DNA of 42,515 bases, taken from sequence record PP754824.1. The stretch is one strand, 5' to 3'. A program made the translations under genes and the position numbers. The first letter of the stretch is position 1. Every line of letters begins with the position of its first letter. Positions 10,672 to 15,209 of the stretch are shown here, in pieces. Below the pieces are notes generated by a model. The model saw only the letters and a program-made list of their open reading frames with translations, was not told the origin of the DNA and did no database searches. Source of the DNA: a phage.

Positions 10672-12255
10672 ATGTTTGATTTCAACGAAGATAAACTATC
10701 TGTTGAACAAGTTATGGCGATTGCCGCGACCGACAACCTCCCACCGCTTCGCGTGGCCATTAATGCAAATGGCTATCGGCAGTCTCAATCATTCTGGAAA
10801 ACACCTGTGGAGATTGACGCAGGTAATGACAAGTACCCTGTAATATCTCTAGGCAATGACATTGATGTTGTTGGTAAGCTCTCGGCAAATATTGCTCGCT
10901 CAGTTCAGTTCCCAGAGTCATCAGCATACATGCACTTTTTGGGTTGTGTGTCCGCTGCGATGCTAGGGCGCTTTACTGTTGAGTATCACGGAACCCAGCA
11001 GCCAACATCGCTTTACGTGGTAACTAGCCAGCCGCCATCTACTGGTAAGTCAGCCATTAACTCTCTGTCAATTGCGCCAATGATTGCTGAGACTGAGCGT
11101 TTGAACGAGGTGCGTAAACGTGACCGCAAAAAGATTATGGCTAAGCTGTCTGCGCTAGCAAAAGAAATGAAACAGGAGAAGTCACCATCTGAGATGGCTT
11201 CACTGTTTGAGGAGAAGGAAGATTTAGAGGAAAAGCTCGAGAAGCTGTGCGATATCGTATTCCCGGTCTCAGATACTACGCCAGAAGGTCTTGCACGAAT
11301 CAACAACCGCCAGGGTAACTTTGCGGTCATCTCGGATGAGGCAACAAGCGTCAACTCATTATTGGGCATGACATACGGTGATGGTTCCAAGAAAACGAAC
11401 AGCGAGCTTGTACTTAAAGCGTGGGATGCTGGTAACGTATCTATTGCCCGCGCTAACGCAGAAAACAACATGAGTTTCGTGGCAATGGGGTGCATCTCTG
11501 TAATTGCTCAGGATGAAACAATCAATGCGATTATGAATGCTGGTGCGCGTGGTATTGGTGTTTCCGAGCGTTTCCTTCTGGTGCGTGAAAAGTCATTTCT
11601 TGGAGACCGCGTGTTTGTTGATGAGAATGGCGATTCAACATACGAGGCTATTGATGATGGTCTTAAAGCAGACTATTTCCGTCTCGTTCATGAAATTATG
11701 AATGAAGTTGAAGTGAAACTGACAGTAAGTGCGTCATCCATGCGCTACCTTAACCGAGCTCGCCAGGAAATGGAACCGCATCTTGGTGATGGCGGTAAAT
11801 ATTCCCACACGATGTTACGTGGTGCTCTTGGTAAATTTGATAAGCAAGCAATCCGTATTGCCTCAGTATTGCACGTTATTCGCAACTGGTTCGCACCGGC
11901 GGGGTCGAGTCCGCAGAAATCAAGAGAGATTGAGCTTGAAACAATGCAAGAAGCGGTTATGATTTTCCACGAGTTAAGCAAGACTTATTTGTCGTCCGCT
12001 AGTGCTGCTGGTCATGCTGGTGATAATGCTGAAATGAATAAGCTGGTTGATATCCTGATTAAGCAAGGTAAGAATGGGAAGGGTGTTGTTGGCGTTCGCT
12101 CACTGTATGAAGCAGCACGCAAAGTTAAACCTTTTGAAGGACAGGCTGGCGTAATGACTCGCATCAAGGACCACTTGGTTCCTATGCTTGATGAGAAAAA
12201 CTATACATGCCTGATTGGTGATAAGATTTACATTAATCCGCGATTGTTGGGGTGA
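10672..12255 (+). CDS. P-loop NTPase, putative replication initiation/helicase-type protein (527 aa)
   Basis: Walker A-like QPPSTGKSA and Walker B-like AVISDEAT; N- and C-terminal segments have paralogues at 7541..8074. Confidence 0.55.
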   Translation: MFDFNEDKLSVEQVMAIAATDNLPPLRVAINANGYRQSQSFWKTPVEIDAGNDKYPVISLGNDIDVVGKLSANIARSVQFPESSAYMHFLGCVSAAMLGRFTVEYHGTQQPTSLYVVTSQPPSTGKSAINSLSIAPMIAETERLNEVRKRDRKKIMAKLSALAKEMKQEKSPSEMASLFEEKEDLEEKLEKLCDIVFPVSDTTPEGLARINNRQGNFAVISDEATSVNSLLGMTYGDGSKKTNSELVLKAWDAGNVSIARANAENNMSFVAMGCISVIAQDETINAIMNAGARGIGVSERFLLVREKSFLGDRVFVDENGDSTYEAIDDGLKADYFRLVHEIMNEVEVKLTVSASSMRYLNRARQEMEPHLGDGGKYSHTMLRGALGKFDKQAIRIASVLHVIRNWFAPAGSSPQKSREIELETMQEAVMIFHELSKTYLSSASAAGHAGDNAEMNKLVDILIKQGKNGKGVVGVRSLYEAARKVKPFEGQAGVMTRIKDHLVPMLDEKNYTCLIGDKIYINPRLLG

Positions 12256-12258
12256 TAG

Positions 12259-12594
12259 ATGTTTCTACTCGACGTATACAAGTTCTGCGAAGGATACAGG
12301 AACTTCAACCGCCAGCACCTGGCAAGATTCATCTACAAGCACAAGGATTGTGCAAGGATGGCTAAGGCCGCTGGAGTTGATGAAAGGTATTTTGCATCTA
12401 GTTGCTCGAAGGAGTTTATGGCGAGAATGCTTACGGCTGGTTATCTTGATGGAGTTAATGGCGTGTACTGGTCAAAGGGTTCAGGCAAGAGGCCATTCCA
12501 GTTTGAGTTTATGAGCCTTGAAGGTAAGTCTAGTGCTTATGTTAATGAGATGATGAATATAGCAACCATGAGTGACGAAGAATTGTTTGCATAA
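12259..12594 (+). CDS. hypothetical protein (111 aa)
   Basis: ORF track. Confidence 0.45.
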   Translation: MFLLDVYKFCEGYRNFNRQHLARFIYKHKDCARMAKAAGVDERYFASSCSKEFMARMLTAGYLDGVNGVYWSKGSGKRPFQFEFMSLEGKSSAYVNEMMNIATMSDEELFA

Positions 12595-12621
12595 AAATAG
12601 CCCCATTACGGGGCTTTTTTG
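12594..12621. terminator. bidirectional rho-independent terminator at a convergent junction
   Basis: AAAAAT-AGCCCCATTACGGGGCT-TTTTTGTTTTT. Confidence 0.7.
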
Positions 12622-12992
12622 TTTTTCCTGAATATTACCAAAAGCAGAATGATGATGATGCACAACATAATTCCACTTCCAACCCACGGGATTGCAGAAG
12701 AATCATTGTTTGTGATTTCAATCTTCTCAGCTGTGATTGTTGACGCTTTGATTGAGTTATCAGAAGTCTTCTTACCGCTTGAGCTATCAAGAGTGTCAAC
12801 ATTAGAGTTCTTCAACTCAGCCTTTGCATTGGAACTTGAATAAACCTTGTTTGTCAGACCTACGCCAACCTTATTGTTCTCCGCTCCAGCCTGGGCGCTA
12901 ATCTCTGGCTTACTGCCAATCAATCCGGTCAGTGCTGATGTTGCCGAACAACCAGAAAGAAGAATTGCCGCAGCAATTAATACAGTCTTCAT
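12606..12992 (-). CDS. unimolecular spanin (outer-membrane lipoprotein signal plus C-terminal transmembrane segment)
   Basis: Lipobox LLSGC near the N-terminus and hydrophobic C-terminus IMLCIIIILLLVIF followed by RKNKK; architecture of phage T1 gp11-type u-spanins. Confidence 0.65.
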   Translation of the reverse strand: MKTVLIAAAILLSGCSATSALTGLIGSKPEISAQAGAENNKVGVGLTNKVYSSSNAKAELKNSNVDTLDSSSGKKTSDNSIKASTITAEKIEITNNDSSAIPWVGSGIMLCIIIILLLVIFRKNKKAP

Positions 12993-13474
12993 TTACCAAC
13001 CCCGCTTAAGCACAATTTAATCTCCTCGTTACGCCTGTTTACGAGACCCTTGACTACCTTCAGCTTGCCATTTATTCGAGCCTTGTTCCACATCCCGAGA
13101 GCCTTGCAACCCTGCTCAACTTTACCCTGGTTAATCAGCCGTACAGCCGTTGACTTCCTCATTGCAGAACCGCCAACGTTATAACTAAAGCTGATTAACG
13201 CCGCCCTTGTTTCTGGTGAAATTGGATAGGTAACTGCATCCTGCACATACTTACCATGAATCTTAATGTGCCTCTCCAGCAAGTTACGGCACTCCCTTGC
13301 GCTGTATACTTTACCAACAATAACATCTGGGCCAGTCACACCAGAACAAACCGTAGGTATGCCAGCAATATCCATATATGGCCTGTACCCTACACCCTCA
13401 ACAAGCTCAATAACCGGCGCTGCGATGTATATTGCCGCTGCCGTCGCTGCACTAATTATCAGCCTTTGCTTCAT
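12989..13474 (-). CDS. SAR endolysin (GH24 lysozyme with N-terminal signal-anchor-release domain)
   Basis: Catalytic-triad pattern E-x8-D-x5-T (LVEGVGYRPYMDIAGIPTVCSG) after a weakly hydrophobic N-terminal segment AATAAAIYIAAPVI. Confidence 0.8.
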   Translation of the reverse strand: MKQRLIISAATAAAIYIAAPVIELVEGVGYRPYMDIAGIPTVCSGVTGPDVIVGKVYSARECRNLLERHIKIHGKYVQDAVTYPISPETRAALISFSYNVGGSAMRKSTAVRLINQGKVEQGCKALGMWNKARINGKLKVVKGLVNRRNEEIKLCLSGVGK

Positions 13475-13689
13475 TACTTACTCCTTATCTTGATTGCTGT
13501 TTTTAAGTCTCCTGATTCAAGTGCTCGTCGAATCGCCTGGCTATCCTTAAACTTCCAGTAAGACCCCCATAACCCAAAAACGATAAGAGCTACAAGGCTG
13601 ATTATTGCGACTGTGATTTGACCAGTTGCGGCGCCAGTTACAGCAGCCCCGCCAGTTGATGCCGTGGCGGCGTTAAGTACTTCCCTCAT
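13474..13689 (-). CDS. putative holin/pinholin (71 aa from the internal ATG)
   Basis: Single hydrophobic segment ITVAIISLVALIVFGLWGSYW and charged C-terminus; immediately upstream of the endolysin; the ORF-track start at 13767 would run into the upstream terminator. Confidence 0.5.
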   Translation of the reverse strand: MREVLNAATASTGGAAVTGAATGQITVAIISLVALIVFGLWGSYWKFKDSQAIRRALESGDLKTAIKIRSK

Positions 13690-13763
13690 GTGATCACCTT
13701 TAAATCCTAATTTGTCAATAGATAGTGTAAATATAATACAGTAGGCCAGTTCGGATTGTAAGC

Positions 13764-13790
13764 ACAAAAAAGGGGAGCCAAAAGGCCCCC
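13764..13790 (-). terminator. rho-independent terminator (minus strand)
   Basis: GGGGGGCCTTTTGGCTCCCC followed by TTTTTT on the minus strand. Confidence 0.6.
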
Positions 13791-13817
13791 CACTTGTAAA
13801 ACTATGTTTTTGATGTG

Positions 13818-13991
13818 TTAATCTGCGATAATAAATTCCACCAAAGAGCCATCAATCGGCGCAAGGATGTGAGTCATATCGTCGCCATAAATCTTGTAGT
13901 AACCGCTACCAAGATGCTCGCCGCTGTATGGCTGATTCTCAGTAAACGGAAGCGTCTTTGAGTTGTTTTTCACGCAGTATAGTTTAGTCAT
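13818..13991 (-). CDS. small hypothetical protein (57 aa)
   Basis: Hand-translated; promoter box, TATAAT and RBS upstream. Confidence 0.4.
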   Translation of the reverse strand: MTKLYCVKNNSKTLPFTENQPYSGEHLGSGYYKIYGDDMTHILAPIDGSLVEFIIAD

Positions 13992-14022: not shown

Positions 14023-14067
14023 ATTATACCTAATTGCTGTGGCGATTGTTTAGCGATTAGTGCTATT
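14023..14067 (-). promoter_or_regulatory. conserved promoter box (AATAGCACTAATCGCTAAACAATCGCC), 22-nt spacer, -10 TATAAT
   Basis: Canonical architecture; leader AATCGAAAACAACAGAGG. Confidence 0.6.
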
Positions 14068-14069
14068 TA

Positions 14070-15209
14070 TTACATTCCAGGTCGATAGATATGACGACCA
14101 ACCTCGCCAAACTCTTTGTGATAAACAATCGCGGCAGCCTGACGATATGAGCGCCACCCCCCTCGTGCTGCATACGCATCCTTGCTTGCTAGTGCTGGAT
14201 GTACTTCGTCAATACCAAGAGTGCACTCTGTTACTGTTGCGTGGTGAAAATGCCCGGAATGGCAATAAACGAACTCGCATTCACCAAAGTCTTTCCTGTA
14301 ATCAGTTGCCATAGCTGCAAGTCTACCTTCCGCTTTCTTCATTGTGTGACCATGAGTGTAGCCAAGTAGTGTTGAGCCAAATCTTGTCTTGTGCATAATC
14401 GCAGGGCTTACATCAACAAAGACACGACTCTCATTTTCATAAAATGCAGCCATCGCAGCCCGAAGCCAGATCATGCCGCTTTGGTCATGATTTCCCTCGA
14501 TAATTTGAATGTCAACACTTTTATGCTTTTTAAGCATCTTTTCTACAGCGCCACGAATTGATCTAATTGCGATGTAGACTAACTTAGCGTAACGGCTATC
14601 TTGGTCAAGGCAGTGGCCACTAGCTGGAGTTACCGCCTCAAGACCATCTGAGTGGAGATAATCACCGCCAACAAGGATGACTGCCTTTTCTGAAGCTGGC
14701 GAAACTGATATTGCATGGTCAAAGTATGAGCCCATTAGTTTTTCTGCCGTTGCCGTGTCATAATTTTCACCAGACTCGTGGCGATGGGCCATCATTCCAA
14801 TATGTATGTCGAAAATTGGATACAGTGTCATTAGGTCAGGGTTTGTATCTTTGCCTGAATGCTTAACTTCCTCACACTTTGGCAACTCAGAACAGAAAGC
14901 CTCTCGCGCTTGCTCGAGCATAATTTCAAGGCGTTCATTATCAACGCTCGTCTTAACCCAGCGCAGCTTCTCATTCCCATCCGCATCAATCATGGTTGAA
15001 GTACCCTTGACTAAATAGCCGTCCGGCACTAACTTCTTGATACCATCATTGCCATGCCCAAACAAACCACTCTTAGCTAACTTACTGCGACGAAGTTCAA
15101 CGTTGCGAATGTTCATGTCGTACTTCTCCGCAATCGCCTTGTTAGTCATGCCGTTTTTAAGTTCTTCGATTAGCTGATCGTTGGTAATCTTTGCTACTGT
15201 CATTTTCAA
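14070..15209 (-). CDS. calcineurin-like metallophosphoesterase with N-terminal helix-turn-helix domain (379 aa)
   Basis: Metallophosphatase signature blocks DIHIG, GGDYLHSDG, EGNHD, GYTHGH, CHSGHFHH; N-terminal 50 aa resemble an HTH (NKAIAEKYDMNIRNVELRRSKL). Confidence 0.65.
   Translation of the reverse strand: MKMTVAKITNDQLIEELKNGMTNKAIAEKYDMNIRNVELRRSKLAKSGLFGHGNDGIKKLVPDGYLVKGTSTMIDADGNEKLRWVKTSVDNERLEIMLEQAREAFCSELPKCEEVKHSGKDTNPDLMTLYPIFDIHIGMMAHRHESGENYDTATAEKLMGSYFDHAISVSPASEKAVILVGGDYLHSDGLEAVTPASGHCLDQDSRYAKLVYIAIRSIRGAVEKMLKKHKSVDIQIIEGNHDQSGMIWLRAAMAAFYENESRVFVDVSPAIMHKTRFGSTLLGYTHGHTMKKAEGRLAAMATDYRKDFGECEFVYCHSGHFHHATVTECTLGIDEVHPALASKDAYAARGGWRSYRQAAAIVYHKEFGEVGRHIYRPGM

What the first reader, a model, noticed from the sequence alone, without database searches (positions are those of the whole stretch)
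12606..13689. Lysis cassette of holin, SAR endolysin and unimolecular spanin
The endolysin has the GH24 catalytic pattern behind a signal-anchor-release segment. The last gene combines a lipoprotein signal (LLSGC) with a C-terminal transmembrane helix, the architecture of phage T1 gp11. This points to relatedness with T1-like phages and implies holin-independent endolysin export.
Basis: partly seen in the sequence, partly recalled or inferred. Interest (0 to 1): 0.45.

Follow-up and report, generated by a model that had tools for sequence, protein, structure and literature searches.

The report
Ordinary T1-type phage lysis cassette
The region is the standard three-gene cell-bursting module (holin, membrane-tethered lysozyme, single-protein spanin) of a T1-like E. 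coli phage; nearly identical deposited genomes already annotate it this way, so it is correct but ordinary.

Summary
Three minus-strand genes with overlapping stop and start codons encode:
- a 71-aa holin (13689..13474)
- a 161-aa GH24 lysozyme (13474..12989) with an N-terminal signal-anchor-release-like segment and an E26-X8-D35-X5-T41 triad
- a 128-aa unimolecular spanin (12992..12606) with lipobox LSGC (Cys15), Ser at +2, no periplasmic Cys, and a C-terminal transmembrane helix followed by a basic tail

No other lipobox-bearing ORF is embedded or overlapping.

The three proteins are 54%, 45% and 39% identical to T1 gp13, gp12 and gp11. The gene order matches T1, as does a bidirectional terminator over the spanin stop codon. 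The DNA is 99.7-99.9% identical to Escherichia phages TR2, TR3, CY1 and Rao1 (Drexlerviridae, Braunvirinae, Christensenvirus). Between them, those records already label these genes holin, lysozyme or SAR endolysin, and u-spanin.

The holin's class is not settled by any data I found. This covers pinholin versus large-hole holin, and one versus two membrane segments.

Side observations are a DUF7244 (SH3-like) gene just upstream and a ~1.2 kb deletion of pnk plus an ATPase gene relative to the nearest relatives.

Novelty: already known.

The parts
13474..13689 (-). Holin gene, 71 aa, T1 gp13 homologue. One strong TMD (aa 24-44, nt 13558-13620). It is preceded by a weakly hydrophobic Gly/Ala/Ser/Thr-rich segment (aa 4-20, nt 13630-13680) and followed by a basic C-terminal tail.
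   Evidence: PHROG 2877 'holin' 1.5e-35, full length. 54% identity to T1 gp13, E 3e-30. Family alignment supports the start at M1. Shine-Dalgarno AAAGGTGATC lies just upstream. Hydropathy. No Pfam family.
12989..13474 (-). SAR-type GH24 endolysin, 161 aa, T1 gp12 homologue. SAR-like segment aa 5-22 (nt 13409-13462). Catalytic E26/D35/T41 (nt 13352-13399).
   Evidence: PF00959 6.1e-34. PHROG 7 endolysin 1.9e-46. 45% identity to T1 gp12, E 5e-43. Best solved relatives are RrrD 4ZPU and phage 21 R21 3HDE/3HDF, E about 1e-26, with the alignment running into the SAR region. Triad invariant in the family. Annotated 'SAR endolysin' in phage CY1.
12606..12992 (-). Unimolecular spanin, 128 aa, T1 gp11 homologue. 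Lipoprotein signal plus lipobox aa 1-15 (nt 12948-12992). Periplasmic domain aa 16-102 without Cys. C-terminal TMD aa 103-121 (nt 12630-12686). Tail RKNKKAP.
   Evidence: PHROG 1804 Rz-like spanin 5e-44. 39% identity to T1 gp11, E 1e-23. G14, C15 and S16 invariant in 10 family members. Architecture rule passed by the window protein; in 8 relatives the lipobox, Cys-free periplasmic domain and C-terminal TMD recur, with Klebsiella phage Shelby lacking K/R in residues 1-7 and having Ala at +2. AlphaFold helix 104-124. Annotated 'u-spanin' in TR2 and TR3.
12599..12615 (.). Bidirectional intrinsic-terminator-like hairpin between the spanin and the convergent gene 12259..12594. The spanin stop codon lies in the loop.
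   Evidence: Found on both strands. RNA fold -12.2 kcal/mol, z = -2.6. Equivalent terminators are annotated at the same place in T1, SU57 and Shelby.
13772..13791 (-). Terminator-like hairpin upstream of the holin, after the DUF7244 gene. It marks the 5' boundary of the cassette.
   Evidence: 8-pair stem with 7 G-C pairs plus a T run. Fold -20.7 kcal/mol, z = -4.1, 0 of 200 shuffles as stable.
13733..13762 (-). Possible sigma-70-like promoter for the cassette (CTTACA-18-TATTAT). Weak evidence only.
   Evidence: 9 of 12 consensus match. The scan found 4 such sites against 3.4 expected by chance in the region, so this is not significant on its own. A BPROM promoter is annotated at the equivalent place in SU57.
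13818..13991 (-). Adjacent 57-aa DUF7244 (SH3-like) gene, T1 gp14 homologue. A possible accessory of the lysis module, not a proven part of it.
   Evidence: PF23896 7.9e-27. 43% identity to T1 gp14. PHROG 4788, unknown function. Proposed as a 'shell' lysis-module component in PMC13164509.

Best explanation
This is the late lysis operon of a T1-like (Drexlerviridae, Christensenvirus) coliphage. It most likely works as the T1 / phage 21 type 'pinholin - SAR endolysin - spanin' pathway.

1. The endolysin is exported by the host Sec system through its N-terminal, weakly hydrophobic, uncleaved signal-anchor segment (aa 5-22). It accumulates tethered to the periplasmic face of the inner membrane in an inactive form.
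2. The 71-aa holin accumulates in the inner membrane and, at a programmed time, triggers and collapses the proton-motive force.
3. Depolarisation lets the SAR segment leave the bilayer. The enzyme refolds with E26/D35/T41 in place. This is the R21 type, because the SAR segment has no Cys, so activation is not by the P1 Lyz-type disulfide isomerisation. It then degrades the peptidoglycan.
4. The u-spanin is lipid-anchored to the outer membrane through Cys15 (Ser at +2 allows Lol sorting) and anchored in the inner membrane by its C-terminal helix. Until then it is held in check by the intact murein meshwork. Once freed, it disrupts the outer membrane, probably by fusing it with the inner membrane.

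Shown here: gene structure, homology, motifs and hydrophobic segments. Inferred from the characterised homologues: export route, release, hole size, lipidation and membrane fusion.
For: - Gene structure and coupling.
- Family assignments.
- Homology and synteny with T1 gp13-gp12-gp11, including flanking genes and the terminator.
- 99.7-99.9% nucleotide identity to phages whose records, taken together, annotate holin, lysozyme or SAR endolysin, and u-spanin.
- The endolysin's best solved relatives are E. coli RrrD (4ZPU) and the prototype SAR endolysin R21 (3HDE, 3HDF), with the triad aligned. The triad is invariant in the family.
- SAR segment: Kyte-Doolittle about 2.0, 53% Ala/Gly/Ser/Thr, K2 and R4 upstream, Pro20 after the only Ala-X-Ala-like site.
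- Spanin: the window protein has the lipobox, +2 Ser, no periplasmic Cys, and the C-terminal TMD with a basic tail. In 8 relatives across 5 Drexlerviridae lineages and 2 Autographiviridae genera the lipobox, Cys-free periplasm and TMD recur, with one departure (Shelby: Ala at +2, no K/R in residues 1-7).
- No second lipobox ORF.
- Literature: T1 gene 11 complements lambda RzRz1, and the gp11 family sits with a pinholin and a SAR endolysin (PMC6139136). SAR mechanism is reviewed in PMC6116005.
Against: - Nothing contradicts the overall reading.
- No experiment exists for this phage. Lipidation, SAR release and hole size are all inferred.
- The holin has no detectable sequence similarity to the S21 pinholin (E = 3) and no Pfam family.
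- Published annotations disagree on one versus two TMDs for T1-type holins. T1 and Shelby records say one. The Sushi and TLS papers say two.
- The single-sequence AlphaFold model of the spanin is poor (pLDDT 54.7). It says nothing about the periplasmic domain, so the beta-rich fold reported for gp11 could not be confirmed.
- Identity to T1 gp11 itself (39%) is just under the 40% clustering threshold used by Kongari et al. Membership of that cluster would be by linkage through closer members (46-50% to GS71, KLB19 and Minorna).
Confidence: 0.93

Rival explanations
1. The cassette is as described, but the holin is a canonical large-hole holin rather than a pinholin. Phage P1 works this way: a SAR endolysin paired with a canonical holin. 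The endolysin would still be exported by Sec, and the holin would merely depolarise the membrane.
For: There is no sequence similarity to the S21 pinholin and no Pfam family. The review PMC6116005 notes that phages with exported endolysins may still encode canonical holins, for example P1. No hole-size experiment on a T1-type holin turned up in the three full-text searches I ran.
Against: Literature from the Young laboratory and others consistently classifies T1-type holins as pinholins. The protein is small (71 aa). Its N-terminal segment has the same weak hydrophobicity as the SAR-type TMD1 of S21: crude Hessa-scale sum +6.2 for both, and 76% against 65% small residues. Its TMD has a conserved FGxxG motif (F38, G39 and G42 invariant).
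Confidence: 0.15
2. The endolysin's N-terminus is an ordinary cleavable Sec signal peptide, so the enzyme would be a secreted soluble lysozyme rather than a signal-anchor-release protein.
For: The N-terminus has the n-region/h-region layout common to both kinds of signal (K2, R4, then 18 hydrophobic or small residues). No signal-peptide predictor was available here.
Against: The only Ala-X-Ala-like site (I17-A18-A19) is followed by Pro20, which blocks signal peptidase I (established rule, my knowledge). Catalytic E26 lies only 4 residues after the hydrophobic segment, as in R21, where the released SAR segment becomes part of the active fold. The alignment to full-length R21 (3HDE) extends into this segment. 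A constitutively secreted active muramidase would lyse the host prematurely. Relatives are annotated as SAR endolysins.
Confidence: 0.04
3. The last gene is a lipoprotein with another role, for example Cor/Llp-type superinfection exclusion or an o-spanin whose partner lies elsewhere, rather than a unimolecular spanin.
For: There are very weak N-terminal PHROG hits to the Cor superinfection-exclusion protein (E 0.02) and to spackle (E 0.059), covering the signal peptide only.
Against: Full-length homology to the experimentally validated T1 gp11 and to PHROG 1804. The C-terminal TMD recurs in all 8 relatives checked, which a Cor-type or o-spanin lipoprotein would lack. The gene overlaps the endolysin stop codon (ATGA), consistent with translational coupling. 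No i-spanin-like ORF is present in the cassette.
Confidence: 0.02

Closest known systems
Escherichia phages TR2 (OP251154), TR3, CY1_Cui-2023 and Rao1: Drexlerviridae, Braunvirinae, Christensenvirus
   Same: 99.7-99.9% nucleotide identity over 12400-13900. The same three genes are present, annotated variously as holin, lysozyme or SAR endolysin, and u-spanin or putative spanin. TR1, at 91.8% identity, has its lysis genes described in PMC10450929.
   Different: Essentially nothing within the cassette. Upstream, the window lacks the ~1.2 kb pnk plus ATPase pair that all five of these relatives carry.
Phage T1 lysis cassette gp13 (holin), gp12 (endolysin), gp11 (prototype u-spanin)
   Same: Same gene order and similar sizes (71/162/133 aa against 71/161/128). 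Identities are 54%, 45% and 39%. The lipobox LSGC is the same, and so is the terminator overlapping the spanin stop. The DUF7244 gene (gp14) upstream and the convergent helicase module downstream are also shared.
   Different: Different subfamily (Braunvirinae against Tunavirinae). The signal peptide is shorter (Cys15 against Cys22). The periplasmic domain has diverged. T1 has an HNH endonuclease gene upstream of gp14, which the window lacks.
Phage 21 S21 pinholin, R21 SAR endolysin, Rz/Rz1
   Same: R21 is, with E. coli RrrD, the closest solved relative of the endolysin (E 1.2e-26) and has the same E-X8-D-X5-T triad and N-terminal SAR segment. The overall logic is the same: a small holin plus a Sec-exported, membrane-tethered muramidase.
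   Different: The holin is not detectably homologous to S21, and it lacks the dual-start motif and the inter-TMD loop. Outer-membrane disruption uses one protein (a u-spanin) instead of the two-component Rz/Rz1.
gp11-family u-spanins in Autographiviridae (Drulisvirus Minorna, Bonnellvirus usur / J8-65 type)
   Same: Homologous u-spanin: 46% identity (Minorna) and 27% (usur) in the alignment, with the same lipobox plus C-terminal TMD architecture.
   Different: Different gene order in Minorna, where the spanin precedes the annotated holin and endolysin; in usur the endolysin lies two genes downstream and no holin is annotated. The phage backbone is podovirus-type. Kongari et al. name J8-65 as one of the two family members not sitting in a pinholin plus SAR-endolysin cassette.

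Membership tests
T1 gp11-type unimolecular spanin | N-terminal lipoprotein signal sequence with lipobox and acylatable Cys | tested here: met
   MKTVLIAAAILLSG-C15. It passes a PS51257-style rule (K in residues 1-7, six uncharged residues, [LIVMFWSTAG]2-[LIVMFYSTAGCQ]-[AGS]-C, Cys at 15-35). G14 and C15 are invariant in 10 homologues. LipoP and SignalP were not available.
T1 gp11-type unimolecular spanin | Outer-membrane sorting (no Asp at +2 after the lipid Cys) | tested here: met
   Ser16 at +2. The relatives checked have Ser (or Ala in Shelby), and none has Asp. The Lol-avoidance rule is established knowledge. Actual localisation was not tested.
T1 gp11-type unimolecular spanin | C-terminal transmembrane domain anchoring the protein in the inner membrane | tested here: met
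   WVGSGIMLCIIIILLLVIF, aa 103-121, Kyte-Doolittle 19-residue mean 2.91, followed by RKNKKAP. AlphaFold helix 104-124, with mean pLDDT about 90 for residues 111-120.
T1 gp11-type unimolecular spanin | Sequence homology to gp11 | tested here: met
   BLASTP gives 39% identity over 119 aa, E 1e-23. PHROG 1804 5e-44 over the full length. This is just below the 40% cut-off of Kongari et al. against T1 itself, but 46-50% to other members.
T1 gp11-type unimolecular spanin | No periplasmic cysteine (unlike two-component spanins) | tested here: met
   0 Cys between Cys15 and the TMD. The same holds in all 8 relatives. This matches PMC6139136.
T1 gp11-type unimolecular spanin | Last gene of the lysis cassette, with no embedded, overlapping or separate o-spanin | tested here: met
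   ATGA overlap with the endolysin stop. A six-frame lipobox scan of 12550..13750 finds only this ORF with an N-terminal lipobox.
T1 gp11-type unimolecular spanin | Periplasmic domain predicted mainly beta-strand rather than coiled coil | tested here: inconclusive
   The single-sequence AlphaFold2 model has pLDDT 54.7. The periplasmic part (residues 25-103) has no assigned secondary structure, and residues 20-53 and 55-63 fall below pLDDT 50. No coiled-coil helices are predicted.
T1 gp11-type unimolecular spanin | Functional complementation of a lambda Rz/Rz1 defect | not testable with these tools
   Shown for T1 gp11 only (PMC6139136).
SAR endolysin, R21 type (GH24 muramidase) | T4-lysozyme-like (PF00959 / GH24) catalytic domain with Glu-X8-Asp/Cys-X5-Thr | tested here: met
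   PF00959 6.1e-34. E26, D35 and T41 fall by alignment offset on R21 positions 35, 44 and 50 and are invariant in 6 Drexlerviridae homologues. That E35/D44/T50 form the R21 catalytic triad is from my own knowledge (Sun et al. 2009), because the paper is not held.
SAR endolysin, R21 type (GH24 muramidase) | N-terminal weakly hydrophobic TMD rich in Gly/Ala/Ser/Thr, basic residues before it, not cleavable | tested here: met
   K2 and R4, then LIISAATAAAIYIAAPVI (Kyte-Doolittle about 2.0, crude Hessa sum +1.7, 53% A/G/S/T). Pro20 follows the only AXA-like site. This is sequence-level evidence only.
SAR endolysin, R21 type (GH24 muramidase) | No Cys in the SAR segment and Asp (not Cys) in the triad, so activation is by refolding rather than by P1 Lyz-type disulfide isomerisation | tested here: met
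   No Cys in aa 1-42. The triad residue is D35.
SAR endolysin, R21 type (GH24 muramidase) | Sec-dependent export, membrane tethering, PMF-dependent release | not testable with these tools
   Inferred from P1 Lyz and R21 (PMC6116005).
T1 gp13-type holin (PHROG 2877) | Sequence homology, small size, at least one TMD, charged C-terminal tail, first gene of the cassette | tested here: met
   PHROG 2877 1.5e-35. 54% identity to gp13. TMD aa 24-44. Tail KFKDSQAIRRALESGDLKTAIKIRSK.
S21-type class II pinholin | Homology to S21 (Pfam Phage_holin_2 family) | tested here: not met
   No Pfam hit. BLASTP against S21 71 gives E = 3. The S21 sequence I used was verified as 100% identical to the phage 21 record.
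S21-type class II pinholin | Two TMDs, the first a SAR-like segment able to leave the membrane | tested here: inconclusive
   The N-terminal segment aa 4-20 matches S21 TMD1 in weak hydrophobicity. However, it abuts the strong TMD with no loop between them. Published calls differ: one TMD or two.
S21-type class II pinholin | Forms nanometre-scale holes that depolarise the membrane but do not pass endolysin | not testable with these tools
   Needs a co-expression test with a soluble endolysin.

The most novel reading that the evidence does not exclude
The T1-type 71-aa holin may be a pinholin of independent origin. Its membrane topology has never been determined: either a single N-out/C-in TMD, or a loop-less SAR-TMD1/TMD2 hairpin. 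Separately, the adjacent signal-less DUF7244 SH3-like protein may be a genuine fourth lysis factor. Because it has no export signal, it could reach the murein only after the inner membrane is breached, which pinholes would not allow. That would imply either larger holes or a post-lysis or cytoplasmic role. Neither point is specific to this window; both apply to all Drexlerviridae.
Probability: 0.2. Interest if true: 0.35.

Novelty: already known. Interest (0 to 1): 0.07.

Why it matters
It matters little beyond correct annotation. It places the window in the Drexlerviridae and shows that the lysis module follows the T1 paradigm, which is useful for annotation and for phage-engineering or endolysin-mining work. 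The open questions it touches are family-wide, already recognised in the literature, and not made newly testable by this sequence. They are how u-spanins fuse or disrupt membranes without coiled coils, the topology and hole size of T1-type holins, and the role of the DUF7244 SH3-like protein.

Tried and rejected
- Embedded or overlapping o-spanin. A six-frame scan for lipobox motifs across 12550..13750 found only the spanin's own N-terminal LSGC. The other three motif hits lie deep inside ORF fragments with no start or signal context. Rejected.
- Antisense ORFs inside the cassette (13256..13561 +, 101 aa; 12619..12843 +, 74 aa). No PHROG match. Treated as spurious.
- The 97-aa holin version starting at TTG 13767, used in the published TR1 gene table. 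Rejected in favour of ATG 13689. All homologues start at the equivalent Met, a strong SD precedes it, and the extension would begin within a few bases of the upstream terminator's T-run and run across the promoter-like site.
- NCBIfam. No holin or spanin family above cut-off, and the endolysin gave only sub-threshold hits to GTA endolysin and SpmX models. Uninformative.
- A viral-contig scan with the spanin found only 7 close relatives. Family diversity was taken instead from the annotated phage collection, where tblastn hit 1132 records.
- Single-sequence AlphaFold2 of the spanin gave low confidence, and only the two terminal helices were informative. A deep-alignment model was not attempted, because the alignment I had contains sequences the tool does not accept and the verdict did not justify a 13 CPU-hour search.
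- Key primary papers are not held in the library: Kongari 2018 J Virol, Kuty 2010, Sun 2009 and Young 2014. Statements that rest on them are marked as my own knowledge or are taken from reviews that are held.
Full report
**Observation**

The interval 12606..13689 holds three co-oriented minus-strand ORFs.
- ORF 1 is 71 aa, from ATG 13689 to the stop at 13474.
- ORF 2 is 161 aa (13474..12989).
- ORF 3 is 128 aa (12992..12606).

The junctions are TAATG and ATGA, overlaps of 1 and 4 nt that are consistent with translational coupling. Strong Shine-Dalgarno sequences precede the first two genes (AAAGGTGATC and TAAGGAG).

**What the genes are**

PHROG profiles give holin (phrog_2877, 1.5e-35), endolysin (phrog_7, 1.9e-46) and Rz-like spanin (phrog_1804, 5e-44), each over essentially the full length. 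Pfam recognises only the lysozyme domain (PF00959, 6.1e-34).

The DNA of 12400-13900 is 99.7-99.9% identical to Escherichia phages TR2, CY1_Cui-2023, TR3 and Rao1. TR2 is classified Drexlerviridae; Braunvirinae; Christensenvirus. TR2 and TR3 label the three genes holin, lysozyme and u-spanin. CY1 calls the middle one 'SAR endolysin', and Rao1 labels a holin and a 'putative spanin'. More distant Braunvirinae such as SU57 carry 'holin / endolysin / unimolecular spanin'.

**Comparison with T1**

I fetched the T1 genome (NC_005833) and compared the proteins directly.
- Holin against gp13: 54% identity, E 3e-30.
- Endolysin against gp12: 45% identity, E 5e-43.
- Spanin against gp11: 39% identity, E 1e-23.

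Gene order and sizes match. So do the small gene upstream (gp14), the convergent helicase module downstream, and the terminator overlapping the spanin's stop codon.

**Endolysin**

E26-X8-D35-X5-T41 follows directly after the hydrophobic segment LIISAATAAAIYIAAPVI (aa 5-22), which is preceded by K2 and R4. The best matches among solved structures are E. coli RrrD (4ZPU) and phage 21 R21 (3HDE full length, 3HDF truncated), with E about 1e-26 to 1e-27. The alignment extends into the hydrophobic N-terminus. By its offset it places E26, D35 and T41 on R21 positions 35, 44 and 50. That these form the R21 catalytic triad is my own knowledge of Sun et al. 2009, which is not held in the library. The triad is invariant in six Drexlerviridae homologues.

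The segment is moderately hydrophobic (Kyte-Doolittle about 2.0, 53% Ala/Gly/Ser/Thr). It has no Cys, and its only AXA-like site is followed by Pro. This is the R21 type of signal-anchor-release endolysin, not the P1 Lyz disulfide-isomerisation type.

According to the review PMC6116005, such enzymes are exported by Sec without cleavage. They stay tethered and inactive in the energised membrane, and they are released and refold when the holin dissipates the PMF. So 'holin-independent export' is right, but activation remains holin-timed. For this protein the whole route is inferred.

**Spanin**

The N-terminus MKTVLIAAAILLSGC passes a PROSITE-style lipoprotein rule, with Cys at position 15. Ser at +2 allows outer-membrane sorting. 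There is no Cys between Cys15 and the C-terminal hydrophobic helix WVGSGIMLCIIIILLLVIF (aa 103-121, Kyte-Doolittle mean 2.91), which is followed by RKNKKAP.

The lipobox, the Cys-free periplasmic domain and the C-terminal TMD recur in all 8 relatives checked. These are T1, Tlsvirus GS71, Vilniusvirus KLB19, Webervirus Shelby, Rogunavirus C119, IME542, and the Autographiviridae Minorna and usur. Shelby departs in two details, with Ala rather than Ser at +2 and no K/R in its first seven residues. G14, C15 and S16 are invariant alignment columns.

A six-frame lipobox scan found no other candidate lipoprotein start in the cassette, so there is no hidden o-spanin. A single-sequence AlphaFold2 model is poor overall (pLDDT 54.7). 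It gives a confident helix only at 104-124 and no coiled coil.

Kongari et al. 2018 (PMC6139136) report several relevant points. T1 gene 11 complements the lambda RzRz1 defect. The gp11 family is the largest u-spanin family. Its members, except J8-65 and Limezero, sit in pinholin plus SAR-endolysin cassettes. No u-spanin has periplasmic Cys. The proposed mechanism, still unproven, is inner-outer membrane fusion once the murein is removed.

**Holin**

There is one strong TMD (aa 24-44) with a conserved FGxxG motif (F38, G39 and G42 invariant) and a basic tail. The N-terminal stretch aa 4-20 (VLNAATASTGGAAVTGA) is only weakly hydrophobic. Even so, it is quantitatively as hydrophobic as the experimentally established SAR-type TMD1 of the S21 pinholin. 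I checked the S21 sequence against the phage 21 record first.

There is no sequence similarity to S21 (E = 3). Published annotations disagree on the number of TMDs. The T1 and Shelby records say one, while the Sushi and TLS papers say two, N-in/C-in, class II pinholin. I therefore file it as a T1 gp13-family holin. 'Pinholin' is a reasonable inference but untested.

**Boundaries and surroundings**

A stable terminator-like hairpin lies between the upstream gene and the holin (13791-13772, -20.7 kcal/mol, z = -4.1). It is followed by a weak promoter-like site that is not statistically distinguishable from chance. A bidirectional terminator-like hairpin (12599-12615) has the spanin stop codon in its loop.

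The upstream 57-aa gene (13991..13818) is DUF7244 (7.9e-27) and a homologue of T1 gp14. A 2026 paper (PMC13164509) describes this as a standalone SH3-like protein. It found the gene in 188 of 522 Drexlerviridae, always next to the lysis genes, and proposed an auxiliary lysis role.

I note that it has no signal peptide or TMD, and that a terminator-like hairpin separates it from the holin. Its membership of the cassette is therefore unproven. A murein-binding role is also hard to reconcile with pinholes.

**Deletion relative to the nearest relatives**

The five nearest relatives are TR1, TR2, TR3, Rao1 and CY1. Compared with them, the window lacks about 1.2 kb carrying polynucleotide kinase and an ATPase / dNMP-kinase-like gene. 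That segment would lie between the DNA-repair exonuclease (15209..14070) and DUF7244. The break lies in a repeated intergenic sequence.

**Verdict**

This is a textbook T1-type lysis cassette, already annotated in near-identical genomes and covered by the spanin literature. Interest is low. The only loose ends are holin topology and hole size, the u-spanin mechanism and the DUF7244 role. All are family-wide and already recognised.

Noticed in passing
window 13818..13991 (-): A 57-aa DUF7244 (PF23896, 7.9e-27) gene lies directly upstream of the holin. It is 43% identical to T1 gp14. A 2026 paper (PMC13164509) calls it a standalone SH3-like 'shell' component of the Drexlerviridae lysis module. 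It has no signal peptide or TMD, and a strong terminator-like hairpin (13791-13772) separates it from the holin. That sits awkwardly with a periplasmic murein-binding role in a pinholin system.
   Followed up: partly
window ~14025..14075 (junction), between exonuclease 15209..14070 and DUF7244: The window lacks about 1.2 kb that is present in all five closest relatives (TR1, TR2, TR3, Rao1 and CY1, 99% nucleotide identity). That segment carries polynucleotide kinase and an ATPase / dNMP-kinase-like gene. In TR2 the two ends of the missing segment share a ~50-nt intergenic repeat beginning AATAAATAGCAC, which suggests deletion by recombination between repeats.
   Followed up: partly
window 13690..13767 (-): The published TR1 gene table (PMC10450929) lists a 97-aa holin, reported as 100% identical to that of IME542. 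This corresponds to the in-frame TTG at window 13767. The family alignment, the SD sequence and the upstream terminator all favour the 71-aa ATG 13689 start, so the 97-aa version looks like an over-extended gene call.
   Followed up: yes
phage-collection hits of the spanin and of the cassette DNA: Homologues of this cassette appear in records labelled with unlikely hosts. These include Listeria phage LM 4-11-1 (an 8-kb record, 48% identity to the spanin), 21 Campylobacter phage records including A110b, and Pseudomonas phage PsgS01F (78% nucleotide identity). A spanin has no function in a monoderm such as Listeria. These are probably coliphage contaminants or mis-assigned hosts.
   Followed up: no
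L014 (Escherichia phage Minorna) 1471-2702; L016 (phage usur) 1486-2862: gp11-family u-spanins also occur in Autographiviridae (Drulisvirus, Bonnellvirus). In Minorna the gene order is different: the spanin precedes the annotated holin and endolysin. In usur the endolysin lies two genes downstream and no holin is annotated. This indicates horizontal spread of the u-spanin gene independent of the T1-type holin and endolysin.
   Followed up: partly
window 12259..12594 (+) and 10672..12255 (+): The genes convergent on the cassette are a conserved 111-aa protein of unknown function (PHROG 2794, 3.2e-58; no Pfam hit) and a 527-aa protein annotated as DUF3987-domain-containing in TR2. It occupies the position of the gene annotated 'DNA helicase' in T1 (ST9).
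   Followed up: no
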